NCBI GenBank assembly: GCA_951406725.2 | Contig: OX597828.1 | Span: 9,362,001 to 9,426,000, forward strand | Reading direction: 5' to 3' | Length of the DNA: 64,000 bases | Source: Octopus vulgaris | Taxonomy: Eukaryota | Shown: positions 7,190 to 57,480 of the stretch, in pieces | Layout: each line of letters starts with the position of its first letter | Numbering within the stretch: the stretch's first letter is position 1 | Program-made: the position numbers and the translations under genes | Notes under the pieces: generated by a model | Seen by the model: only the letters and a program-made list of their open reading frames with translations | Told to the model about the DNA's origin: nothing | The model's database searches: none

Positions 7190-7788
7190 ATTTTTTTATT
7201 GCCCACAAGGGGCTAAAAATAGAGGGGACAAACAAGAACAAACAAAGGGATTAAGTCGGTTATATCGACCACAGTGCGTAACTGGTACTTATTTAATCGA
7301 CCCCGAAGTAATGAAAAGCAAAGTCGACCTCGGCGGAATTTGAACTCAGAACGTAGCAGCAGACGAAATAACAGTTTCTTTACTACCTACAAGGGGCTAA
7401 ACACAGAGGGTACAAACAAGGACAGACAAACGGATTAAGTCGAATATTTCGACTCCAGTGCGTAACTGGTATTTAATTTATTGACCCTGAAAGGATGAAA
7501 GACAAAGTCGACCTCAGCGGAATTTGAACTCAGAACGTAAAGACAGACGAAATACCTGTTTCTTTACTACCCACAAGGGGCTAAACGCAGAGGGGACAAA
7601 CAATGACAGACAAACGGATTAAGTCGATTATATCGACACCAGTGTGTAACTGGTACTTATTTAATCGACCCCGAAAGGATGAAAGGCAAAGTCGACCTCG
7701 GCGGAATTTGAACTCAGAACGTAACGACAGACGAAATACCGCTAAGCATTTCAGCAGGCGCGGTAACGTTTCTGCCAGCGCGCCGCCT
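7190..7788 (-). mobile_element. tRNA-derived SINE, family A: one head plus three tandem ~184-bp body units
   Basis: Head ggcggcgcgctggcagaaacgtt...; each unit has a B-box-like gagttcaaattcc and core gcctttcatcctttcggggtcgat(t)aaa..agtaccag; unit marker cccacaagggg at ~7202, ~7386, ~7570. Confidence 0.85.
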
Positions 7789-7884
7789 TAGAATATATGC
7801 CTTTCTATTACATGTGTGTTCTTATGTTGTTTTCTCTGAGTGCATAAATATGTATGCATATTTATATACTCTCTTCTGCTTTAA

Positions 7885-27989: not shown

Positions 27990-29139
27990 CAGAAAGTTTC
28001 AGCAAAAACATGGTTGCAAATACCCTGTGGACAAGCCGATATGATCTGGATCTCGGTAACGGTGTTAAAACGGTAACATTTGACTAGCACTTTCATCTCC
28101 GGGAAGACATGGAAGTCTGCAGGTGTTAAATCTGGCCAATAGGGTGCGTTCAGAATTGATACGATGCCGTTTTTGGTGATCTCGGTGTCAAGGGGCATTG
28201 CCATCGTAAAGAATCCAAATCTCGCGCACCACAGATGCGGTTGCTTTCGCCAAATGTCCTCTCTCCAATGATGCAGTATAACCCTTGAATAACAATCTGA
28301 CCATGATGGGGTGGGGGGAACTTCTAGATGCACAATATGTCATAAAAATAAATACGATGAGCATGCCCTTGATTGAGCTGCGGCTTCGTTTTGCCTTCTA
28401 CGGTCGTGGTGGTGAAGGGCTCTTCCATCGTGACGACTGATGCTTCGTCTCGGTCATACTTGTAGACCCAACTCTGGTCACCGGTCATGGACTTCGACAT
28501 GAATAATGGGCCATCAGCGGCACGCTGACGGAGATCTTGGCAGATTTCGACGCTATGTTCTTCTCAGTGGTCAGCAGGTGGGGGACGAACATGAGAGATA
28601 CACGCCGCATGTTCAATTTACACGTTAGGATTGCCTGCACGGACCCTTAACACGAGCCAAGAAGATAACAATGTCGGTGATTGTACTCCTACAATCTTCA
28701 TCCACAAGCTGATGAATTTTCTCCCCATTTCTGGATTGACGATCGTGGCAGGTTTCCAGATCACTCATCGTCTTCCAGTGACATTCTTCCCTCTTCGAAG
28801 CGCTCGTGCTACATAAATGTTGCGTATGTCGCATTGCATCGTCGCCAGAAGCTTATCGGAGCAGGATCGATGTCTCTGCGGCACTGTAGCAGACTTTCCA
28901 AGTTTAATACAAGTTTCACGTTGGCTATTTGTTTCAACTTCCTGACCATGACAAAATCTCACACTACAGCATAGACGTGATCACAAAAACACAAATTTTA
29001 CATTTTGAGAACTAAACGCAGCGCACTGCCTTATGAAGGACATTGGTAGCTCTCATTCTGCACGTAGCCATGTAACCATGTGCTGCTATCTGTTGGCGCG
29101 CTTCAGAACTCATCCGGAATTTTTTTTGATAAGATCTCG
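27990..29139 (-). pseudogene. Degraded mariner transposon with one intact TIR
   Basis: NAPYWPDLTPADFHVFPEMK (YSPDLAPxD motif) in ORF 27947-28333; IKLGKSAT (HTH) in ORF 28765-28962; terminal cgagatcttatcaaaaaaattccgg (29114-29139, minus) next to TA. Confidence 0.8.
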
Positions 29140-29419
29140 TATTCTTTACAATTTTAGATGAAAATTCAAATCTATTCAATGCGTTTATATCACTGTATGT
29201 ATGTAACTATGTACACACATACATACACATACATATATTTATATAAATATCTATTTATACATGTGTATGTATATGTGTGTATGTATGATGAATCTTGTTG
29301 TGAAAGACAAATGAGGGCTCTGGAAAATAAAATTATATATCATGTTCTATGGACACGAATGTGTTCTGTTAAAGCCTGGTGCTGCCTTGCAAACCTTTCG
29401 CAAAATAGAAAAAGTTGAG

Positions 29420-32959: not shown

Positions 32960-33005
32960 AACACAACGTTTCGGCTGATATACCCTCCAGCCTTCATCAG
33001 GTGTC
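32960..33005 (-). ncRNA. Minimal type I hammerhead ribozyme motif, canonical CUGAUGA core
   Basis: Minus strand: gacac-CTGATGA-a-ggctg(gagggtatat)cagcc-GAAA-cg-TT-gtgtt; stems I and II pair, palindromic ACGU stem III. Confidence 0.8.
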
Positions 33006-33269: not shown

Positions 33270-34107
33270 GAGTGAGAGAGCAGTGCATGCCATCAAAGTG
33301 ACACTGGGGTAAAATATACGAAGCCCAGTATACCCAAAATGACTACCCGTCTGATAAGGGTATACTAGGCACATGCATCACAACCATATTTGCGCGACAT
33401 GGTGATCTCATATCAAGATAAACAGCGCATGACCTTGCAGGTGGGGCCCAGTTAGAATTTTCATCTGGTCGAATAAACCATTCTACGTCCCCACGCTCAG
33501 ATAGTGTCAAACCATATGCTAATTAACCTAAAGCTGGGACCTTGAAAAGTGCTACTACTCCGGGTCATAGTAGGCCTGGAAACTGCAGTGGCTAAGTGAT
33601 GGTTCAACCCTCTTCAAATCCCCCAAATTCCTAAAACGGAGCTCCTGTACCGAGTTGTCTTTGAAGTCATACAGATATGAAAATGCTATTAAAGTCGTCA
33701 GTTTTATATTTTCTCATTCACACAGTTATCTATACGATTATAAATCTCTCTAATCCATTAAAATAGTGTTTATTGGAAGATTTTGATATTTGTGACCTCC
33801 TTTTCCTTGCCTGTATGTATATATTTCTTTCTCCTTTTCTTTCTCTTTCTTGTCTCTCTGTCCTTCGCACTCTTCCCCTTCTCTCTGTCCTCCCCTTCCT
33901 CTTTTCTCTTTCTTCTTTTCTAAATAAAACAAAACAACGTTCTCTTTTCCATTTCTATGAAAGGCTAAAGTAATTTTCTTTGCATCATATCTCAAGAGTT
34001 TGATTGAACGGACTAAAGCGCTGATAAAGAATTATCCAAAATTTTGACTTTAATCTTCATATATACATTTATATATGAAGATTTATCTTCATACATACAT
34101 TTGTAAA

Positions 34108-34508
34108 GGCGGCGAGCGGACAGAATCCTTAACTCATCGGGCGAAATGCTTTGCAGTATTTCGTCTGCCGCTACGTTCTGAATCCAAATTCCGCCGAGGT
34201 CGACTATGCCTTTCATCATTACGGGGTCGATTAAATAAGTACCAGTTACGCACTGCGGTCGACATAATCGACTTAATCTGTTTGTCTGTCCTTGTTTGTT
34301 CTCTCAGTGTTTAGCCCCTTGTGGGTAGTAAAGAAATAGGTGTTTTGTTTGCCGTTACGTTCTGAGTTCAAATTCCGCTGAGGTCGACGTTGCTGTCATC
34401 CTTTCGGTGTCGATTACATAAGTGCCAGTTACGCACTGGGGCTGATGTAATCGACTTCCTCCATTTGTCTGTCCTTGTTTGCCCCCATTTATGTTTAGCC
34501 CCCTCGGG
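34108..34508 (+). mobile_element. SINE family A: head plus two tandem units
   Basis: ggcggcgagcggacagaat head; units joined at gtagtaaagaaatagg|tgtttt. Confidence 0.85.
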
Positions 34509-35708
34509 GTATATATATATATATATATATATCATCTGATCCAATCAATACAAACATGTATACGCACATATAAATTAATTAAGCAAACAAATTTGCATAT
34601 ATATATACACACATATACTGCCCATATACTCTCATATTTATAACAATAATGTATAAGTATGTTTGTGAGCGAAGTCACCTTTTTCGAATGTTTTCTTGAT
34701 CTCACTTGATAATTCTTTTCGTGATTTGAAATAAAAATGTACTACTCAAGATTAGTACACGGATCTTGTTATATGAATTTAAACATCTTTTTTAGCATGC
34801 CTATCTCCAAATTGAGGTATAAAATGACCGCGAATAACCAAATTATTGAACTCTGCGATGTCATCGTTATTGTTCTCGAAATATAAATGCTGTTTCTCAC
34901 AAGTAATGTCTTCCAAGTGGGGAAAATTATATGAACAATGCCGACAGCATTTCACAGAACGACTTTCAAATATGCAATATTATATAAGCATTGCTGCAAA
35001 ATTGTTTTGCCTTAAATCTAGGAAATTTGCGAGATGATGGGCCTTCCAAAACTTTATAATATCTTAACTGAATTATTACCCAAAGCGTTTATATTAATAA
35101 TGACGTTGAACTGGAAACATTTGCAATGGGATTATGTCACGTCTGATTTGGTAACGTTTCAAACTTTATCATTCACGCGTTTATCAATATTATACTGAAA
35201 CTCTCTACAAACATGTATGAGAATTTTTTGACGCAATCTGGGGTTTGTGACAACTTTCCGCTTGCAGATTTTGAGGTATAACGGCACTAAGTTTAGTTAA
35301 ACACTTTATTTTTCATATGTAGATTGAATGATGTAGTTAATATCATTGCTTCACTTATATTTCATACAATATATTGCCCGATAAGTAAAGGCACATATAT
35401 TTATGCACACATAACTACATACTTAATAGCATATACATATAACAGTTTACATATTGAGTGTTTGTATGTATGTATGTATGAATGAATCTATTTATTCAAA
35501 CATATATATGTGCACATATACATAGAGGAATATATAAATATAGCTATATTTACCTAATTAACTTAACTTCTCTGCAATTAAGAAAATTATACAATTAAGG
35601 AAAATGTATTAGTTCAATTATTAAATTACATACAAACACTCTCCCACACACTCAAATCTACACATATGTACACAATTACGCTTGTCTGTGTGTGTGTGTG
35701 TGTATGTG

Positions 35709-36949: not shown

Positions 36950-38200
36950 TGAGGTCAAGTAGACCGAAACTTATGTCCCTTTTCCAACAAAGATCACACT
37001 GTTCTTTCACATAACATGTAAATGGACTCGAGAATTTTATTCTCAATTTCTTGTCATCATCGCTTTGTCTTTCTAAGAGGTGTTAAAATATCATTTGATT
37101 TTCTAACTGAGGGAAACTTCAGCTTATTAAATATTTATTACGTCGTTGTTTTTTTCCTGTGTTATTGCAGTTGTGATTTTATTTATATAGTTGGTGCGGG
37201 TGGAGTTGACTCTGTTGTCAAAATAATTGACAGAATAGAAACCAACTATGCCTTTCAATTCTCGTGCATGTAGTACGGTTCTAGCATTCAGTTCTACCTC
37301 ATGTATAGCACACGCTTTTTTATTGCCTTCTACCGAAGCTTTTTTCTGGTTCACATTCATCGATGAACGATGTTAGTGTTTGTCATTTGGCTAACATAAG
37401 TGAGTAGTACTCACATATTCGTTGGACGTCTGATCCAGTTTGAATGGCAGTCGATTGAATTTCGATGAGCTGCCTATGTTATTCCAAGTTTATTTTTATC
37501 AACTTTATACGCGCATGTATTTATCCCTCATGTGCTGTAATCTATGATACAAATTCCACTGTGTTTTTGGTAATTAAGTATTTTACAGAGTTTCACAATA
37601 TTTCTAATAGCTTTCAATCGAGGTATTATTCTTCAGATCAAGTTGGTAGGACTCTCTCGAATCTTTTTTCCTCCGTTTCACCATATTATTTTGAAACACA
37701 TCTAGTTTTATGTCATTATTGAGTTTTGTATCCACCTTGCTTTACGGTTCAACTCAATGTCAACTATGCTATGGAGTACATTTGACTTACGTCGACATGC
37801 TATAGCAAAATCCTCTCTGGGTACAGAATACATGAATTCTTTACACGACTAAGGAGTTTCTAGTATTTGGGTTCGTATGCCATCCAAATCAGTGGTATTT
37901 ACTTGCGTAATATCTTTGTTATCTCTATAACGGTTGGTGGGACCTCTGCTCTTGATGTTGCTGGCAACCCATAGATATATAGTCAAAATTCCGATGTTTA
38001 TGTTAGAGTAATGATCTACGCTTGTGTTGCTCTTTCAATTTTTGTTCCGTTTTGTTTAGCCGGTTAATGGCTTGCGTTGAAGAACTATTGAGGAAAGTCA
38101 TTCTTATCCCTACTAGTTCTATCGCTAAACCTTTCCTAATACATTCATTTATATTGGTGATAAACTCTTCCTTCAATGTTCCCCTATTACTTTTTCTTAC
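36950..38200 (-). pseudogene. Highly degraded R4/Dong-like retrotransposon fragment
   Basis: ORF 37127-37360 reads LHARELKGIVGF..DNRVNSTRTNYINKI, resembling WL..G.LK.ETEGF..QDQ..TRNY...I of R4-clade ORFs; boundaries approximate. Confidence 0.3.
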
Positions 38201-39589
38201 CTAAACGCTATTGATTCTGATATAAATTATCCGAGTCAGTGTGCCCTACGTTCGAAGTCTGACGATTGCCGCCGTCAACTGCATGGCGGCTTAGACTTGA
38301 TTAACGATTTCGAATTACATCGGAGAAATTTATTAAATACTGAGAAACTAAATGTAATATCGGCAATCAAGGTGTACGTTACAGGTATATAACAACAACA
38401 GCAGCAACAACAACAACAACAGTCATAATCAATTCTACTGGGCCTGACATTTTGGATGAAGGTGTTAGACGATTATTTCAACACAATGCTCGACTGGTAC
38501 TTATTTCACTTACATCGGCGTAATTTGAACTAGAAAAGGAAAAACAGGCGAAATGCCGTCAAAGGCATTTGCTTAATTCATGATCTTGGAGAGAGCATCA
38601 TGTCTGTCGGTATACAGCTTGCAATTTATGAAACTGATTTCAAATCTGCATTCTAACGCAAATTGTACTATATTCTAAGCGCAAAACTGCCCTTGTTTAT
38701 GTTTAAAGATCGTTGTATTTAAATCCACAATGTTTACATTCCTATATGACTCTCTTTCTGTTATCCTCCTTTATTCCGTTTTCCTCCATCTGTGATCATT
38801 TTTTTCCCTTTCCTCACACAGCAACGAACTTCCCCGCCAGAGTTCCTAATTTTCTCTTGGTCTATATTGCTCCTTCTATCTCATTTTTCTCTGACTCTCG
38901 GTGATATTTTTGCTGCTTTTGTTTTCCGATATAGGACTAAAAGGTTCCCTACGCTGCCTTAATCATTATTTTTACGGCCATGGCGAGAGTAGCATGTATA
39001 TCTGTGTACAAGTTGTATTTATGAAACCTATTTAAATTTGAATTCCAATTTAAATTTACATTCTAACCTAAATTGGGCTATATTTTCATCGTAAAAAGTT
39101 TTTACTTTGTTTGAAGATCGCTATATGTTTATATTAATCCCAAAACGTTTTATTTACTATATCACTATTTCTCTCTCACTTTTGTTTTTCATACCCTACG
39201 TGTAGAGTTGTCACAATAGTCGCTGATGTAGGGATATTTAGTAACATTGTGGGATAGAAAACTAGACGCGTGTAAGGGCGGGTTAAATCTGATGAGTCAT
39301 CAGCCACCCATATAGTCTGTTTTTGTTTCTATCAGTAGTGCTTCTGATGAAGCTATTAAGCCTTGATATACCAGAATGAATAAGAATGAAAACCCTCAGA
39401 ACAAAACGAAGGAGGGGTACGTTAACCTTGATTGATAATCTACTCGTATTACTCGTTACCGTAATTATTATAAGTGTAATACTAAATGAAAATTAATTAC
39501 TCTAAAGTTTATGAGATCCGAACCACAACTGAAGTTCTCTTTCATGGAGTTTTCCCACTGTGTAGCAGGGTGGGTGAAGCAGGTACGCA

Positions 39590-43478: not shown

Positions 43479-43778
43479 GTATGATTTGCGTCTGCGCAGA
43501 GGTTTGAGAAGTTAGGATATACAAACCGTTAGATCTACATGTGCTTCTAACAGTCTGTGCGTCTAAGATTACAAAGGCTTCCCACTGAAGAACCTGGCCT
43601 GGCAAATATATTCTGTGTGTTTGCTAAAAATAGGTAGAAACCGTTCGGTCTGGGATATAGCTGAGATGGTAAATGTTTTTAATTTTCATTCCTTTCATGA
43701 ATTTATCCCTTTTTGTGTTTCTAGCACTACGCTTCCTTATTTGGAAGCCTTTTATTATATTATACATATACATGTATG

Positions 43779-43855
<77 letters not shown>

Positions 43856-43982
43856 AATAGTAAAGAGTGAAAATACTACAGAAGGCTTAAATGTTAAAAA
43901 ATATATATATTTGCATCAATATGTCTGAAGAATATTAGCAAATTTAAAAAAAAAAATGTTCTCTTATAATTACATGATTTAA

Positions 43983-44021
43983 AAGAAAGACCGGTTTCGC
44001 GTGTAGCTTTTCAAATTTCTT
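43983..44021 (-). ncRNA. Hammerhead motif with U3:A8 core in the 3' pseudo-LTR of the Penelope-like element
   Basis: Minus strand: aagaaa-t-TTGAAAA-gc(tacac)gc-GAAA-ccgg-TC-tttctt; palindromic ACCGGU stem III; GUC triplet; stem II only 2 bp. Confidence 0.65.
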
Positions 44022-44130
44022 GCGACGTTATGTTTACGTTGAATAGAGTTATCGTTATGTTTATGTTCAGGAGAATTCTAAATAAGGGGAGGTAGTGAGA
44101 GATTTCTTCCGGTGTAAGGGAGATAATCAC

Positions 44131-47100
44131 TTAAACATTTTTTCCTTTCCCTTGGTGTGAATTTCTCTGTATCAGTATGTTCGGATGGTTGAATCTGGGC
44201 TTGTACTTTTCAATGAAGAATGTTTCCTTGTTTAGTCTAATTTGTGTTGATGATCCGAAAGCACATTGGTAAAATGGATAGATTAAAAATTGTGGTAGTA
44301 GTTGCTTTGCGCATTTCTCAATGTGCTCACTAAAATGTATCATTCTATATTCTGGGAATGCAATCTGTTGTCGATGCAGTGTGCATCTACGTCTGAGTGA
44401 TAGTCCCGTGGAACCCACGTTGTCTTGGTGGCAGCCCGAGCATTTTATGACATAAATTATGTTTTCAGAGGCACAAGTAAAGTTAGATTTGATCTTGAAT
44501 TTCTGTCCCTCTTTAAAGAGGAATTCTGATCCTTCTAGCAGGTTAGGACGTGTTGCACAGTTCGATCTACCACATTTTTTTACTTTTGCATCCGTAATTT
44601 CAGAAGACAATTTTGCCTTTGTGAGAATCTTTTTAAGTGATTTAGGCTGTTTGTAGCTTTTAATGATTTGGTGTATGCTTAGAATTTCCTTTAATTTGGG
44701 GTCTTTATGAAGTATTGGTAAATTCTGGGTGATGATGGTGAAGGCTTCTTTGTTTCTGGGGTTGTATGTAGATATGTAAGGTAGTATTTTCGGGGAAGGT
44801 GTGTTGTTGTGTTGAACTTTTCTTAAAGTTTCTATGCTGATTTCTGTTGCACGTCTGATCCCATCCTCTATGAGTTGAGCTGGGTAATGTCTGTCAATTA
44901 GGGTGTTTTTGAGTTCTTGCAGTCTAAAGTTCCTGGTATTTTGTTCTGACACTATTGTGCATATCCTTCTTGCAAGGTTGAAGGGGATGTTTGTTTTAGT
45001 GTGTCTTGGGTGGCATGAATTAAAAAGAAGGTATTGGTTGGCGTCTGTGGCTTTGTAAAAAATGTCTGTTCCTATTTTAAGGTTTATTTTTTTAATTAGT
45101 ATATCCAAGAACGGGAGCTCCTTTTGGTTGTATTCCATTGTGAACTGTATTTTGGGGTTTATGCTGTTCAATAGGTTTTTAAATTTTAGGAGTTTATCTG
45201 TGTTTTCATTCCAGAGAATAAAACAATCGTCTAAGAATCGTTTCCAATTCTCTTTTATGTATTGAGAGTTGGGGTTTCCAAAGATTGATAAAGATTCCTG
45301 GTAAATGATTATTTTCCATGTATCCCATTGTTAAGTTCGCAATGACTGGTGCTGCCCTTGTACCCATAGCAATTCCGGATTTTTTACGGTAAAATGTATT
45401 GTCAAACATGAAGTGGTTATTGTAAAGGATGAATTCAATTGATTTATTAATGAATTCTTTACTGATCCTTTTGGTATTTCTTCCGGAAATTGGTCTAACC
45501 AGAACTGTATTGCCTCCAGTCCATAATTATGAGGTATACTGGTATATAAGTTAACTACATCAAATGAAACCAGGATTGTTTCTTCCTTGGCTTTTTTTGG
45601 AAGGTGGTTTAACATATCTAAGTCATCTCTGATATGGCTATCGATGTGTTTAAGGAAGGGTTTCAGGAGGATGTCCATAAGTAGACTTAGTCTGTGTGTT
45701 TCACAGGTTGGGCCAGCTACAATGGGTCGTAGTTTTAGGTCCCCCGGGTTAGGTGTGTGTATGTATGTCTTTAGTGATTTTTTAATGGTTTCATTTATAA
45801 TTTGACTGTTATGAATTTTTGGCATACCATAGAAAAGGCTAGGTTTGCATTTAAAGTTTGTTAGGAAGTCAATCTCTTTGGTTGTTAGTTCCTTTTCATG
45901 GGTTTTAATTAGTGAAGATAGAGTTTTCATTATTTTTTGTGGGGTGTAGTTGGTAATTTTTCATAATGTAGGTCGTCATCAAGTAAGGAAATTACAAGAT
46001 TTCTGTAGTATGATGTATCCATTATTACAACTGCATTTCCCTTGTCTGCTTCCTTAATGGTTATATCCTCATCATTTTGAAGTTCTATCAGTTCTTTCCA
46101 TTGTGTAGTATTAAAATTTGAGTTAACTTTCCGTTTATGTATAGTATGGTAAGGAAAGTTCTCAATGTGGTTACAGAATTCGTCAAGATCTTTATTTCTT
46201 CCTCTGTGTGGGATGTGTTCACTTTTGTTCTTGACTAGTGATTCATCTTCAGTATTGAAACTGGTTGATGCTTCTGCTAGTCTTAATTTTCTGCAAAATT
46301 CTGTTATATTATCCTTGATTTCATTTAGGTTGGCTCTGCGTGGAGTTGGTGTAAATTTGAGCCCGTTTGAGAGGATGTCAATTTTTATATTAGAAAGAGG
46401 TTTGGTTGAAAGATTGATTATCTTCGGTTTTTCCTTATTACTAGGTTCCAGCCTGTGTCCTGGTGTCCCTGGTCCCTGGCTAAAAAATGTTGGGTGTAAT
46501 TTTGTTTGTATGAGTTGTCTGTGAGGTTGTGTGATATTGGGTCGGGGGAGTGGTGGTATTGTTGCCCCCGATCGTTGTGTGTGTGTGGGAATCTATGGTT
46601 GTTTTTGTTTGTGGTGTGTGTAAAATTTCTGTATGAGAAATATTTTTGTTTCGAACTGCTTGTATGTGGGATGTTGCTTGACATAGTGTTTTTTTTGCGT
46701 TTGTCTTGTGTTTAGTGGGGACAGTTAATTTTGGTTCATGGGGTAGTAGCGACTTGTGTGTGGTGTATTTCTTATTCTAGTGTCGTTTTGTGCTGTATGG
46801 TGGTTGGGTCTGGTATTAGGATGTTGTTGGTGTGTTCTGTTAGGTCTTGCGTGGTTTGCAAAGGTTGGTTGTGGGTGATTTCTGTTTTTAGTGTATGGAG
46901 GATAGTTGGGGGTTGTTCGTGGGTTGTTTGGTTTTTCTTTTTTATTTTTTGTAATTTTCTTAAGGAAGGGATTATTTGTACCCAATTCATTTTTGAAAGT
47001 TGCACTATATTTTTGGAAGAAGTCCATGTTTTTCTCCCAGCGCAGGAGAGAATTTCTCTCTTCTTTTTCACAGGTATCCTTCCAATGATTTAATGTATTT

Positions 47101-47727
47101 TCGAGGGGTTGTCCCTCGGTATGTTTCTGTATTATATTGTGCATCTCCTCGTCGATGCTTTTAAATTTTGTGCATCTCCTCGTCGATGCTTTAAATTTTT
47201 CCTCATTTGTGGAGGCCTTTAGTCTTAGAAGCTCTATTTCTGATCTTAAATTGAACAGAGCTGACTTTTCCCTAATAGTTCTCTGTCCGTCAGGCTCGTT
47301 AGGAATTAATTTTATCTGGAATTTGCGTGGGAGGATAATTGGTGTTGAGTTCATCCATCCCTCGTAAATATCTGCTTTGTTGGAATTTTTTATCATGTTC
47401 CAGAAGGCGAGTTTTCTGTTGTGCAGGTTTGTATTCCAAATGTTTGCTATTTTTCTTTTTGCTGGGTTAATTTGGGTGCGTATGATGTCCTGCTGTGTTT
47501 CTTTTGTTGATAAAAATTGAATTTAGTGTTGTGTATAACAGTTGCAAATCCTTACTAACCTGGTCAGTGTAGCGAGTTGTATCTTCATTGCTTTTACTTT
47601 CCCGGGCGAGTAGGTTTGATTCCTCGATTTTGTCGTTCAGGTTAATAAGCTGTGTATTAATATTTTTCAGTTCTTTGAGTATGTCCTCATTTGTGGTTTT
47701 ATCCGAGGTGTTGGTCTTCTGTGGCAT
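44131..47727 (-). pseudogene. Frameshifted Penelope-like polyprotein (long N-terminal extension, RT, thumb, Zn-finger, GIY-YIG endonuclease)
   Basis: NLSTKPL..ILSNGLKFTPTP, IKEADKGNAVVIMD, FYGMPKIH, LRPIVAGP, SFDVVNLYTSIPH, GIAMGT, WKRFLDD (shifted frame), LPFLDI, SCHPRHTKTNIPFNLARRI, CGRSNCATR, NIIYVIKCSGC...VGST..SLRRRCTLHRQQI, KETFFIEKYKPRFN; split over several frames. Confidence 0.93.
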
Positions 47728-47967
47728 TTTCGGTCTCACCTGTTTAATATATAGATAAGAAAGTTGGTTTGTGAAAGCACGTGGGTGAATATATAGAAAA
47801 TAGTAAAGAGTGAAAAAACTACAGAAGGCTTAAATGTTAAAAAATATATATATTTGCGTCAATATGTCTGAAATGTATGTATGTATATATATATATATAT
47901 ATATATATAATTGGTGAATGGAAGAAATGGAGTTGAACGAAGATTGTACAGAATTCCTTTTATTACA

Positions 47968-48248: not shown

Positions 48249-48316
48249 TACATATCTAAATATCTAGCTAGCTACCTATCTATCTCTCAGTCTCACTGTC
48301 TTTCTGTATGCGTTTA

Positions 48317-48838
48317 TTCTGAGTTCAAATCCCGCCGAGGTCGATTTGCCTTTCATCCTTTCGGGGTCGATTAAATAAGTACCAGTTACGCACTGGGGTT
48401 GATATAATCGACTTAATCCGTTTGTCTGTCCTTGTTTGTCCTCTCTGTGTGTAGCCCCTTGTGGGTAGTAAAGAAATAGGTATTTTGTCTGCCGTTACGT
48501 TCTGAGTTCAAATTCCGCCGAGGTCGACGTTGCCTTTCATCCTTTCGGGATCGATTAAATAAGTACCAGTTACGCACTGGGGTCGATGTAATCGACTTAA
48601 TCCCTTTGTCTGTCCTTGTTTGTCCTCTCTGTGTTTAGACACTTGTGGGTAGTAAAGAAATAGGTATTTCGTCCATCTTCTTCATCTTCATGTCCCGAAT
48701 TCAAACTCCGCCGTGCTTGGCTTTGCCTGTCATTCTTTCGGTGTCGATAAAATAAGTACCAGTAGAGCAATGGGATTGATATAATCGACTTGCCCCTTCC
48801 CCTGAAATTGCTGGCCTTGTGCCAAAATTTGAAACCAA
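48317..48838 (+). mobile_element. SINE family A, 5'-truncated array of about three units
   Basis: Repeated ttctgagttcaaattccgccgaggtcgac..gcctttcatcctttcggg..gtagtaaagaaatagg. Confidence 0.85.
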
Positions 48839-49192: not shown

Positions 49193-49749
49193 CTGCTGCT
49201 ACTGCTGCTGGAATATCTGGAGTTCTTTTTTCTACACCAAACCCAGTAAAAAACATTTCATTATAAGAAAAGAGGCTGTACGTTCAATATCGATGTGTGC
49301 GACGTATTAAGTGTTTAATGGATCGATAAAAGTGTAGATTGACATTAATTTAGATGTTATATCATTAACGTCCAATAAGGGGAAAGCAATTGGGTCTGCC
49401 CCAAGCGTGTAACTAAGGGGTGCAGTGACCCAATATATCATCGTTTGACTAGACGTTGTGATACAGAGTAAGAACAATTGGCTGCTACTTCCAGCAGGTC
49501 GAGAGACCACATAAAGGCTTCATTTGCGCTGTTCTCAGCTTACATCCTGCATATCCGGTAATGAAGGTTTCGATTTTAACTGCTTCTGAATTGTTTATAT
49601 GTAGAAAAATAAATGCGATTATTAATATCATCATGAAAGACTAAATCAGAACTACATTTTTGAGAATTCAAGAAACTTCAAATGGGTGGAACAAATTTAA
49701 CAATACCCCATTGTAACGGTGGACCTCAAATGTATAGTATCTCAAATAT

Positions 49750-50150
49750 ATTTCTTTACTACCAACAAGGGGATAACTTAGAGAAGACAAACAAAGGTAT
49801 TAAGTCGATCACATCGACCCCAGTGCGAAACTGGTACTTTATTTATCGACCCAGAAAGGATGAAAGATGAAGTCGACCTCGGCAGAATTTGAACTCAGAA
49901 CGTAACGACAGACGAAATACCTATTTCTTTATTACCCACAAGGGGCTAAACATGGAGGGGACAAACAAGGACAGACATAGGTATTAAGTCGATTACATCG
50001 ACCCCAGTGCGTAACTGGTACTTAATTTATCGACCCCGGAAGGATGAAAGGCAAAGTCGACCTCGGCGGAATTTGAACTCAGAATGTAGCGGCAGACGAA
50101 ATACCGCTAAGCATTTCGCCCGGCGCGCTAACGTTTCTGCCAGCTCGCCC
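49750..50150 (-). mobile_element. SINE family A: head plus two units
   Basis: Same head and unit as 7190-7788. Confidence 0.85.
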
Positions 50151-51929: not shown

Positions 51930-52674
51930 AACAACAAGTCAAGATAGAAATAACGTGCCAACTTCAAGTCATACAACACCTCACTACTTCCACTTATTCA
52001 TATTCTCCCTTCTCTTTCTTCTTCTTCCTCTCCTTCTTCCTCATCATCATTATTATCATCATGGTCGTCGTCATCATCATCACCATCATCATCATCATCT
52101 TCTTCTTCTTCTTCTTCTCTCCTTCTTCTTCTTCTTCTTCTTCTTCTTCTTCTACTTCTTCTTCTTCTTCGTCTTCTTCTTCTTCTTCTTCTTCTTCTTC
52201 TTCTTCTTCTTCTTCTTCTTCTTCTTCTTCTTCTGCTCCACCTTCTACTTCTTAACTTTATCACTAATGCTTTTTAGTATAACACCTACGCAAATTCTAT
52301 AAACAAACCTTTCAATAGAAATATTCTCCTGAATTGAACTGCAACTGACCATTCAAAATACGACAATCAAGGCACTCCCAAATGTTTCCACCCCTTCTCC
52401 TCATCATCCTTCTTCTTCTTCTACCCTACCAAGAATTCACAACGACCTCGAACACACAAGTGCAAACAAGAGAGACAGAGAAAGGGAGAAACAAGGAAAA
52501 TGCCACTTATATTTGAACACTATACAAATATTCCTTTAAAAAAAATTTCTTTTAATTTTTCTAAATTTAATTATTTAATCGTTACAGTTGAAAAGGTCTC
52601 AAAATGACCGAAACCGGTACTGAAATGATCTTTATAAAATTATTTTAGCATTTTCTATCTTGACTTGTTTTTTC
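51926..52674 (+). mobile_element. Non-autonomous Penelope-type element in (TA)n with short inverted terminus and U3:A8 hammerhead
   Basis: gaaaaacaacaagtcaagatagaaa (51926) is inverted relative to tttctatcttgacttgttttttc (~52652-52674); 52410-52674 is homologous to 57200-57445 and, inverted, to 56541-56790; (TA)n on both flanks. Confidence 0.7.
52585..52622 (+). ncRNA. Minimal type I hammerhead motif with compensatory U3:A8 core
   Basis: cag-TTGAAAA-ggtc(tcaaaat)gacc-GAAA-ccgg-TA-ctg: stems I and II perfectly paired, palindromic stem III, GUA triplet. Confidence 0.8.
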
Positions 52675-52816
52675 ATATATATATATATATACATATATTT
52701 CGCTTTGGGATTTGGTTTGCAAGTTTATTTATATGAGTTCGTGTGTTGAAGCATATTCCGTTGTGTCCCTTATATTATAAGGCACAAAAAGCAAATGACT
52801 CTCCCCAGACACAACA

Positions 52817-54316: not shown

Positions 54317-54724
54317 CTTATTTCTTTATTACCCACAAGGGGTTAAACATAGAGAGGACAAACAAGGACAGACAAAGGAATTGAGTCGATTACATCGACC
54401 CCAGGTACTTAATTTATCGACCCCGATAGGATGAAAGGCAAAGTCGACCTCGGCGGAATTTGAACTCAGAACGTAGCGGCAGACGAAATACCTATTTCTT
54501 TACTACCCACAAGGGGCTAAACACAGAGGACACAAACAAGGACAGACAGACGGATTAAGTCGATTATACCGACCCCAGTATGTAACTGGTACTCAATTTA
54601 TTGACCCCGAAAGGATGAAAGGCAAATCGACATCGGTGGAATTTGAACTCAGAACATTACGGCAGACGAAATATGGCTACGCATTTCGCCCGGCGTGCTT
54701 AACGTTTCTGTCAGCTCGCCGCCT
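54317..54724 (-). mobile_element. SINE family A: head plus two units
   Basis: Same head and unit as the other family A loci. Confidence 0.85.
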
Positions 54725-55355
54725 TCATATATAACATTTCAACTTGTTCTCGACTACTGATATCGTTATCTGTGTATATATTCAAGCTAAGTATATATAC
54801 ACATCAGTGCATGAATGGATATAATATCCACATAATTATGTTTTCCGGATGCTTATAAATGAAGGAGTCTACAAATGAATTTTTCTGATCAAATGATTCA
54901 GCCATCCTAAATTAAAAACATTTCCGGTTGAAGTCATAAGCTTTTCTAGCTGTAGTATGCTCTTTGTATAAAGCTCCTTGTAGTTACCGCTTCCCGCTCC
55001 ACATTCTTCTTCGTGTGTCTTGAAGATGTAGATGGTTACCGTCTCACACTGATTTCATTCGTCTCGCACCACTATCTCCTGAGTTTTCTCACGGAATTCT
55101 CCTTTTCACATTACATAGAAACCCACCATAAATGACAACTTGTTAAATAGCGTTCTTTTGTCTACATTTTCCTCTTGGTTCAAAGCCTTCTTGTTTGTTT
55201 ATCTGGTTTCAAGCCTTAGCTCTTACAATTTTTCACTGCTTCAACTTATAAATTTCTCTTATTTTGTTCATTCTATACTTCAAATCATTCACAGCTACTC
55301 CCGTTTTCTCCCTTTTAACATCCTGTACTCATTTATATATATATATATATATAAT

Positions 55356-56453: not shown

Positions 56454-56540
56454 CATGTATGTATGTATGTATGTATGTATGTATGTATGTATGTATGTAT
56501 GTATGTATGTATGCAGAACGATGAAAAGGAACACACGAGT

Positions 56541-57445
56541 GCCAAGGTAGAGAATGCTAAAATAATTTTAGGAAACCGCATTTCAGTAACGGTTTCAACA
56601 TTGAGACTTTTTCACCAGTAAGTATGGAAAAGAATTAAATTTCGGAAAAAATTAAAAGAAAAGTTTTTAAAAAGTATATTTGCATAGTATTCAAATACAA
56701 GGGGCATTTTCCTTGTTTCTGTCTTCTCTGTCTCTCTTGTTTACTCTTGTGGGTTCAAGGCCGTTGGGAATTCTTGGCAGAGAAGAAGAAAAAGAAGGAG
56801 GAGGACGAGAAGGGGAGGAGGTGGGGGAGAAGGAGGGGGAGAAGGAGGAGGAGGAAGGGAGAAGGAGGAGGGGGAGAAGGAGGGGTGAAGGAGGAGAAAG
56901 AAGAGGAGGAAAAGGAAGACCAGAAGAAAAATGTGGTAGTGCCATGATAGTAATAAGATGTTAAATAGTCAAGTGGCCTGAAAGTGATTTGTTGTGGATG
57001 GTAGTAGTGATTGAATGTCTTTTGCAAATATAAACAGTACATTCAAAGATATGTCTCAAGAATTCAATCGCTAATACTATCCACTGCAAGTCACTTTCAG
57101 GGCACTTGACGATTTAAAATTCTACTACTATTATGTACCCTGTATTTTCTTCTTGTCTTCGTCTCCCTCCTCCTTCTCCTCCTTCTTCTACTCCTCCTTC
57201 TTCTTCTCTGTCAAGAATTTACAACAACCTCGAACCAAGAAGAGTAAAAAAGAGAGACAGAGACAGACAGAAACGAGGAAAATGTCCCTTGTATTTGAAT
57301 ACTATGCCAATATACTTTAAAAAACTTTTCTTTTAATTTTTCCAAACTTTAATTGGTTTCCCTAATTACAGTTTCAATGACTGAAACCGGTGCCGAAATG
57401 TTTTTTATAAAATTATTTTAGCATTTTCTATCTTGACTTTTTTCC
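56541..57445. repeat. ~900-bp imperfect palindrome made of two inverted copies of the 52.4-kb Penelope-type family
   Basis: e.g. tcaaatacaaggggcattttcc / ggaaaatgtcccttgtatttga and gtcaagtggcctgaaagtga / tcactttcagggcacttgac; centre ~57020-57060. Confidence 0.8.
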
Positions 57446-57480
57446 ATATGTATAAATATATATATATGTGTGTGTGTGTG

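What the first reader, a model, noticed from the sequence alone, without database searches (positions are those of the whole stretch)
43983..44021. Autonomous Penelope-like element carries a UUGAAAA (U3:A8) hammerhead in its pseudo-LTR
Seen: ~110 nt after the ORF stop, in sense orientation, aagaaa-u-UUGAAAA-gc/gc-GAAA-CCGG-UC-uuucuu; I found no CUGANGA-core hammerhead elsewhere in this pLTR. The upstream pLTR copy (47794-47871) begins ~60 nt 3' of the predicted cleavage site, consistent with a template whose 5' end was set by cleavage and then slightly truncated. Known: C3:G8 forms a Watson-Crick pair in the active hammerhead and U3:A8 is a tolerated but rare swap. The same core and GAAACCGGUH in the 52585 family, with different stems, argues against chance.
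Basis: partly seen in the sequence, partly recalled or inferred. Interest (0 to 1): 0.75.

Follow-up and report, generated by a model that had tools for sequence, protein, structure and literature searches.

The report
Penelope retroelement hammerhead, U-A core
A broken Penelope-like jumping gene carries, in its end repeat, a small RNA motif that is likely a self-cutting hammerhead ribozyme with a U-A pair in place of the usual C-G core pair, a swap already published for these elements, so this is a new example rather than a new kind.

Summary
The motif is present on the minus strand at 43983-44021 (aagaaa-u-UUGAAAA-gc/gc-GAAACCGGUC|uuucuu), 110 nt after the stop of a Penelope-like RT/GIY-YIG frame. 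It is likely a true minimal type I hammerhead. The two nearest relatives with flanks carry the same 2-bp stem II and ACCGGU palindrome with C3:G8, one 121 nt past its ORF match. Positions 3 and 8 pair in 38 of 41 distinct motifs from related loci. Rfam finds nothing, and a model built from relatives scores it only E 1.1. U3:A8, even the heptamer UUGAAAA, is already published for PLE pLTR hammerheads (Cervera and De la Pena 2014, about 1,300 hits in S. mansoni), and this scan found it before on other DNA. It is not rare: 12 of 41 motifs. 'Autonomous' is wrong for this copy, which has frameshifts and damaged endonuclease motifs. Some family contigs carry an A at position 1.1 that gives a perfect 7-bp stem I; this copy lacks it. 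The idea that cleavage set the 5' end is unsupported. In passing: a conserved UUUUUUA slippery site joins ORF1 to RT, and one relative has an A3:U8 core.

The parts
43983..44021 (-). Minimal type I hammerhead motif: stem I aagaaa/uuucuu with one unpaired U (44015), core U3 U4 G5 A6 A7 A8 A9 (44014-44008), 2-bp stem II with 5-nt loop, GAAA, palindrome ACCGGU, C17 at 43989
   Evidence: homologous motifs in related loci
43846..44130 (-). 3' pseudo-LTR, ending in TTTTC-TATATA and running into (TA)n
   Evidence: family contigs join this end either to (TA)n or to the 5' leader of a next unit (table 7)
47789..47872 (-). Upstream partial pseudo-LTR, 84 nt, 2 differences from the 3' copy, lacks the hammerhead; unit length 3943 nt
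44131..46592 (-). RT + linker + GIY-YIG frame, broken by 3 frame changes (near 45950, 45470, 45330); ADKG and FLDDC kept, CCHH kept, linker reads CxxxxCxxR, YIG reads NVG
   Evidence: 52-57% identity to P0001, P0002, P0004
46418..47727 (-). Upstream ORF1 in three frame pieces; the middle piece is homologous to the 393-aa ORF1 of L018; joining of the first piece (ATG 47727) is inferred
   Evidence: 30% identity, E 2e-31
46481..46487 (-). UUUUUUA slippery heptamer in phase for a predicted -1 frameshift from ORF1 into RT
   Evidence: same heptamer in L018, L019, L022, L024, L027
43769..43852 (.). (TA)n target array at the 3' end of the element
47873..47909 (.). [quoted passage not shown]
52387..52690 (+). 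Copy of a second, short repeat family ending in (TA)n, with a U3:A8 hammerhead motif at 52585-52622 (4-bp stem II, ACCGGU, A17)
   Evidence: top hit of the relatives' model, E 0.011
56499..57467 (.). Two head-to-head decayed copies of the same short family (56499-56819 minus, 57172-57467 plus); hammerhead motif damaged in both

Best explanation
The motif is likely the minimal type I hammerhead ribozyme of a Penelope-like retroelement's pseudo-LTR, with U3:A8 replacing C3:G8, and it is predicted to cut only weakly, as a dimer or with protein help. Shown: the sequence, its sense position 110 nt after the RT-endonuclease stop, the same layout in relatives, and pairing of positions 3 and 8 across relatives. 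Inferred: in transcripts of intact tandem family members two motifs would pair through the self-complementary ACCGGU to build stem III, and cut after C17 to trim long transcripts towards unit length. Inferred: U3:A8 is a near-neutral compensatory swap that has arisen several times among PLEs. This particular copy is a decayed insertion in (TA)n. It holds a single hammerhead that lacks the A1.1 seen in some family contigs, so it is probably inactive. Its upstream repeat is best read as ordinary 5' truncation.
For: Relatives: 94 loci fetched with the RT profile gave 67 sense hits against 2 antisense, one of which is an inverted copy of a real motif. Of 41 distinct sense motifs, positions 3:8 were C:G 25, U:A 12, A:U 1, U.G 2, U/U 1; that is 38 of 41 Watson-Crick against a permutation mean of 20.9, reached in 0 of 20,000 permutations (the descriptor left both positions free). 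L018 and L027, in the sister group of the window's protein cluster, read CUGAUGA + 2-bp stem II + GAAACCGGUU with 8-10 bp stem I; in L018 it lies 121 nt after the ORF match. All 10 motif-bearing loci of the window's 100%-supported clade lack the extra base between A9 and stem II, as the window motif does. On their alignment 9 of 10 pairs show two-sided change, and slid controls fall to 33-50% paired against 87.6% (these motifs were selected for pairing). Family: contigs of four runs with four organism labels show, among the 40 of 61 variable places listed, only one inside the motif (44003, loop II) and none at U3 or A8. Eight contigs of X1 and four of X7 read AAGAAAT before G43989, that is GGUC|AUUUCUU, a perfect 7-bp stem I. 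ACCGGU self-duplex is -8.3 kcal/mol. Literature: PMC4209133, PMC3088659.
Against: No Rfam hammerhead match on 43930-44130 at E<=10, nor among the 150 of 267 window matches listed. A covariance model built from 10 relatives ranks the motif third in the window at 15.4 bits, E 1.1, below an imperfect hit at 39334. The copy folds worse than its shuffles (-3.3 kcal/mol, z +1.4; with flanks the hammerhead fold is not the minimum), and its stem I is weak (-2.7 against -8.5 in L018). Twenty-one variable places were not shown, so a minority C3:G8 subfamily is not excluded. Two longer contigs (X3 record 10, X7 record 25) cross the cut site with no gap listed there, so A1.1 is not universal and its share is unknown. 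No cleavage was measured. Published minimal PLE hammerheads cut poorly in vitro.
Confidence: 0.8

Rival explanations
1. [quoted passage not shown]
For: The upstream copy starts about 60 nt 3' of the cut and lacks the hammerhead. Processing of precursor RNA is the role proposed in PMC4209133.
Against: One copy cannot tell this from random truncation. In related loci the upstream repeat extends 5' past the cut in 15 of 17 same-family pairs; the other 2 start at a contig edge (L080 dropped as a different family; most are tandem arrays, and several share one contig or assembly). Published full PLEs show hammerheads in both pLTRs. No loose-end pile-up on the 5' side of 43988 appears among the 24 of 359 rows shown (contigs are a poor test). 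In Poseidon_Ac, hammerhead mutants did not change insertion and no RNA reads ended at the site.
Confidence: 0.15
2. The motif is a hammerhead relic or a protein-binding structure: kept in sequence, with no biologically relevant cleavage in this family.
For: 2-bp stem II, no monomeric stem III, weak AU-rich stem I. Poor in vitro activity of minimal PLE hammerheads. Naiad PLEs spread without them.
Against: Strict 3:8 Watson-Crick covariation and an invariant core across relatives are what selection on the catalytic fold predicts. The Poseidon_Ac hammerhead does cut when its protein is present.
Confidence: 0.15
3. Chance pattern in an AT-rich pLTR.
For: No Rfam hit; E 1.1 with the relatives' model; positive folding z-score.
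Against: 2 of 10,000 pLTR shuffles; same place, strand and layout in the nearest relatives; core invariant in the listed rows of family contigs.
Confidence: 0.04

Closest known systems
Minimal hammerheads (min-HHR) of metazoan Penelope-like elements, including the U3-A8 variant of S. mansoni Cercyon elements (Cervera and De la Pena 2014, PMC4209133)
   Same: Type I, sense strand in the pLTR, palindromic stem III for dimer formation, G10.1-C11.1, U3-A8 core. Fig. S3 row S. mansoni(4)* has the same UUGAAAA heptamer in a Cercyon PLE with hammerheads at both ends.
   Different: Stem II is 2 bp (3 to about 8 bp in their alignment), there is no unpaired base between A9 and stem II, the palindrome is ACCGGU rather than ACGU, and the host element is a Zn-linker type with ORF1.
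Neptune/Nematis-type EN+ PLEs (Craig et al. 2021, PMC8557442)
   Same: RT with DKG, C-terminal GIY-YIG with CCHH, CX2-5CxxC linker in relatives, (TA)n target, partial tandem with pLTRs; their Fig. 1 legend notes that ORF1 can be separated by a frameshift.
   Different: The linker and YIG motif are damaged in this copy; Neptune versus Nematis was not resolved because no named reference sequences were on hand.
Natural C3-G8 to U3-A8 core covariation (Perreault et al. 2011, PMC3088659)
   Same: Same swap, seen in several natural hammerheads and stated to be active in vitro; 2-bp stem II described as common.
   Different: The passages read do not concern PLE pLTRs.
Poseidon_Ac hammerhead (Frangieh et al. 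2024, PMC11167929)
   Same: PLE pLTR hammerhead dependent on the 3-8 pair; protein-assisted cleavage.
   Different: C3:G8 core, Poseidon clade, overlaps the start codon; cleavage not needed for insertion in vitro.

Membership tests
Minimal type I hammerhead of metazoan PLEs | Core N3-UGA-N-N8-A ... GAAA ... UH with paired 3:8 | tested here: met
   U3 U4 G5 A6 A7 A8 A9, GAAA, U16.1 C17; U3-A8 is a published variant
Minimal type I hammerhead of metazoan PLEs | Stem I formed by the strands 5' of position 3 and 3' of the cut | tested here: met
   6 bp with a 1-nt bulge in this copy; perfect 7 bp in 8 contigs of X1 and 4 of X7
Minimal type I hammerhead of metazoan PLEs | Palindromic stem/loop III allowing a dimer | tested here: met
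   ACCGGU, self-duplex -8.3 kcal/mol
Minimal type I hammerhead of metazoan PLEs | G10.1-C11.1 closing stem II | tested here: met
   gc...gc
Minimal type I hammerhead of metazoan PLEs | Unpaired base between A9 and 10.1 and a long stem II (consensus traits, not universal) | tested here: not met
   No extra base, 2-bp stem II. The extra base is also absent in all 10 clade relatives and in two rows of the published alignment (M. japonicus, S. kowalevskii 2), so this marks a subtype rather than exclusion
Minimal type I hammerhead of metazoan PLEs | Sense position in the pLTR of a PLE | tested here: met
Minimal type I hammerhead of metazoan PLEs | Self-cleavage after H17 | not testable with these tools
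   needs an in vitro assay
Rfam hammerhead families | Match to a curated hammerhead model | tested here: not met
   none at E<=10 on 43930-44130
EN+ PLE, Neptune/Nematis type | RT with DKG motif followed by C-terminal GIY-YIG with CCHH | tested here: met
   YIG damaged in this copy
EN+ PLE, Neptune/Nematis type | CX2-5CxxC linker | tested here: inconclusive
   CxxxxCxxR in this copy; intact in P0001, P0002, P0004 and in 9 of the 10 clade loci
EN+ PLE, Neptune/Nematis type | Partial tandem with pLTRs, (TA)n target | tested here: met
EN+ PLE, Neptune/Nematis type | RT tree placement with named clade references | not tested
   the tree held no named Neptune or Nematis sequence
Autonomous (mobile) element | Intact RT-EN reading frame | tested here: not met
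   3 frame breaks and damaged EN motifs in this copy; intact family members not examined

The most novel reading that the evidence does not exclude
Two unrelated-looking (TA)n-targeting families in this genome have both fixed UUGAAAA and share ACCGGU, so their RNAs could build mixed dimeric hammerheads. The short family at 52585 would then be a non-autonomous parasite that switches on, or is switched on by, the full element's ribozyme in trans. The 3:8 pair would be a freely flipping position across PLEs (C:G, U:A, A:U, U.G) that tunes cleavage rate family by family.
Probability: 0.1. Interest if true: 0.55.

Novelty: new member of a known kind. Interest (0 to 1): 0.22.

Why it matters
It adds one more host and one more PLE lineage to a published variant, and shows that U3:A8 recurs across PLEs (7 label changes on the RT tree, at least 5 forced by well-supported branches). 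That is natural support for the C3-G8 tertiary pair, which is already well established. What PLE hammerheads do in vivo is still open. A high-copy family with a very small hammerhead (2-bp stem II) could be used to test whether genomic 5' ends track the cut site, but this broken copy does not settle it.

Tried and rejected
Rfam, whole window and pLTR alone: no hammerhead. No whole genome is held, so copies could not be counted and 5' ends could not be mapped. Viral contigs: none of 50 pattern matches encoded a relative. Pfam on the six window ORF pieces: only RVT_1 at E 0.065 was relevant; domain identity rests on homologues. Depth is higher over the motif than over its flanks in all four laid runs, but ORF bins vary as much, so this was not used. 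An antisense CUGAAGA...GAAA...UC pattern at 43925 (+) inside the same pLTR was rejected: no stem II, and its second half is the reverse complement of the sense palindrome. The idea that the extra U is a real core insertion was set aside because family contigs supply A1.1; L021 has a similar extra U, so it is not fully excluded. Tree labels for L027, L065, L080, L091 and L092 are less secure (motif upstream only, or several motifs nearby), and 55 of the 94 loci were left out of the tree (no motif found, or repeats of a contig). The guess that the host is an octopus comes from recall of microsatellite-rich genomes and was not tested; an O. vulgaris repeat paper has no mention of hammerheads. Look-ups of earlier scan notes by place and by sequence were empty.

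Full report
Observation. The minus strand at 44021-43983 reads aagaaa-u-UUGAAAA-gc uacac gc-GAAACCGGUC-uuucuu. In hammerhead numbering U3 is 44014, A8 is 44009, C17 is 43989. Stem I starts 109 nt after the stop at 44131. The upstream repeat is 47789-47872, identical to 43846-43929 at 82 of 84 places, and starts about 60 nt 3' of the predicted cut. A descriptor that leaves positions 3 and 8 free found 5 hits in the window (3 U3:A8, 2 C3:G8), against 0.21 per shuffled window for any 3/8 and 0.01 for U3:A8 (100 shuffles). It hit 2 of 10,000 shuffles of the pLTR. The descriptor was fitted after the fact. Rfam has no match, and the copy folds poorly (z +1.4).

The host element. The 399-aa terminal frame found 113 proteins of 700 residues or more, the best 57% identical, nearly all with RT-type and many with GIY-YIG Pfam entries on record (Pfam scan of three). 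P0001 maps to 46451-44188 in two frames, and the ORF list shows a further stretch read in a third frame, giving three breaks. ADKG, FLDDC and the CCHH residues remain, but the Zn linker reads CGRSNCATR where P0001 has CGRSNCGIC, and YIG reads NVG. Both ends lie in (TA)n. An upstream ORF1 in pieces is homologous to the intact 393-aa ORF1 of L018 (E 2e-31). This is the layout of Neptune/Nematis-type Penelope-like elements as described in passages of PMC8557442; the clade was not fixed by a tree with named references. The element is of autonomous type, but this copy is dead or badly miscalled.

Relatives. An RT profile fetched 94 loci (17 from genome contigs, 77 from metagenome contigs); these are likely eukaryotic DNA within microbial assemblies (inference). 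The descriptor gave 67 sense and 2 antisense hits. The 41 distinct sense motifs had C:G 25, U:A 12, U.G 2, A:U 1, U/U 1 at 3:8; 38 of 41 are Watson-Crick, never reached in 20,000 permutations (relatedness is not corrected, and many U:A motifs come from one assembly, WLWD01). In a tree of 39 labelled rows plus 5 proteins, the window falls in a 100%-supported set of 16 rows, with L018, L027 and L023 (all C3:G8) as sister group to its protein cluster (support 94). U3:A8 needs 7 label changes, at least 5 forced by starred branches. L018 and L027 read CUGAUGA, 2-bp stem II, GAAACCGGUU, 8-10 bp stem I; in L018 the motif is 121 nt after the ORF match and present in both pLTRs. All 10 clade motifs lack the extra base after A9. 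This positional and structural homology is the main evidence. A covariance model from those 10 put 52578-52629 first (E 0.011) and the finding third (E 1.1), so by sequence alone the finding is weak.

The family itself. Four runs with four organism labels (X1, X3, X6, X7; contigs only; X1 may be the source sample) were laid on 43853-44400; hundreds to thousands of contigs mapped in each. Of 61 variable places 40 are shown. Only one lies inside the motif (44003, loop II), none at U3 or A8; the 21 hidden rows leave room for a minority variant. Loose ends show 8 contigs of X1 and 4 of X7 with AAGAAAT before G43989. On the RNA this is an A right after the cut that pairs with the 'extra' U and makes a 7-bp stem I with no bulge. 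Two longer contigs cross the site with no gap listed there, so both forms may exist. Loose ends at the low end show both (TA)n and the leader of a next unit, as expected for partial tandems.

The 52585 family. Three copies of about 300 nt and two short 3' ends occur in the window; no RT lies beside them at E<1e-3. Only the 52585 copy keeps the motif. The 56.5 kb copy has G at position 3 and a broken palindrome; the 57.4 kb copy has lost the first core half. It supports the motif type but is one observation.

Mechanism. Shown: sequence, place, homology, covariation. Inferred from PMC4209133 and PMC11167929: such motifs cannot form stem III alone, pair through the palindrome as dimers or need the element's protein, and cut slowly; the proposed role is trimming tandem transcripts. 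Upstream repeats extend past the cut in 15 of 17 same-family pairs (18 non-window rows, L080 dropped; the 2 others start at contig edges; most are tandem and edge-limited, so the 'single-unit' clause is not strictly tested). Published full elements have hammerheads at both ends, and cleavage was dispensable for insertion in vitro.

What is known. PMC4209133 (read: parts 1-2 of 4 of the text, parts 1-2 of 3 of the supplement) reports U3-A8 in Cercyon PLEs with about 1,300 hits in S. mansoni, and lists UUGAAAA in a PLE pLTR. PMC3088659 (passages and section 8) reports natural U3-A8 and 2-bp stems II. Also seen: PMC11167929 parts 1-2 of 4; PMC8557442 passages; bioRxiv 10.64898/2026.07.22.740005 parts 1-2 of 5; PMC13282606 and PMC7151607 passages. 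Searches: 'hammerhead ribozyme + U3-A8' gave only PMC4209133; 'Penelope + ribosomal frameshift + retrotransposon + GIY-YIG' gave none; 'Penelope + Neptune + frameshift + pseudoknot' listed only PMC8557442.

Verdict. Observation confirmed, interpretation partly supported, new member of a known kind, interest 0.22. The side results (conserved slippery site, A3:U8 core) may be worth more than the finding itself.

Noticed in passing
window 46481-46487 (-); L018, L019, L022, L024, L027: In-phase UUUUUUA heptamer in the overlap of ORF1 and the RT frame in 6 of the 7 elements of this kind with enough upstream DNA (L001 lacks it), pointing to a -1 ribosomal frameshift. The Fig. 1 legend of PMC8557442 mentions an ORF1 frameshift with a pseudoknot; the clade was not visible in the text. 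The downstream fold was not significant.
   Followed up: partly
L065, L071, L073-L075, L078-L084, L092, L093 (WLWD01 contigs): A second PLE group with in-phase GGGUUUU or GGGUUUC 7-10 nt before the ORF1 stop, in 14 of the 16 WLWD01 loci tested (L064 and L066 lack it): a different slippery site in the same role.
   Followed up: partly
L093:101 and L093:4524: Hammerhead with an A3:U8 core (AUGAUUA) in both pLTRs of one element; its sister L081 has C3:G8. Not searched for in the literature.
   Followed up: no
L078-L080, L021: U3.G8 wobble cores (UUGAAGA), in both pLTRs of L078/L079: a possible intermediate between C:G and U:A.
   Followed up: no
window 32960-33005 (-): Textbook C3:G8 minimal hammerhead (CUGAUGA-A-GGCUG...CAGCC-GAAACGUU) in a short insert next to an (AAT)n array.
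   Followed up: partly
window 43580-43655 (+): C3:G8 hammerhead-like motif with a long stem II and a hairpin stem III, in a separate repeat that ends in the same (TA)n array tail-to-tail with the PLE; stem II closure is imperfect; fold z -2.3.
   Followed up: partly
window 29126-29167 (+), 37608-37636 (-), 39334-39391 (+): Weaker hammerhead-like hits (UUGAUAA; CUGAAGA; CUGAUGA with an imperfect second half); not examined.
   Followed up: no
window 47140-47200 (-): A tandem duplication of about 29 nt inside ORF1.
   Followed up: no
window 7198-7797, 34106-34511, 48302-48791, 49744-50149, 54319-54733: An abundant repeat with an internal unit of about 180 nt, five clusters at 80-90% identity, in both orientations.
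   Followed up: no
L001-L017: PLE RT genes lie in contigs filed under bacterial genome assemblies, likely host or eukaryote contamination.
   Followed up: no
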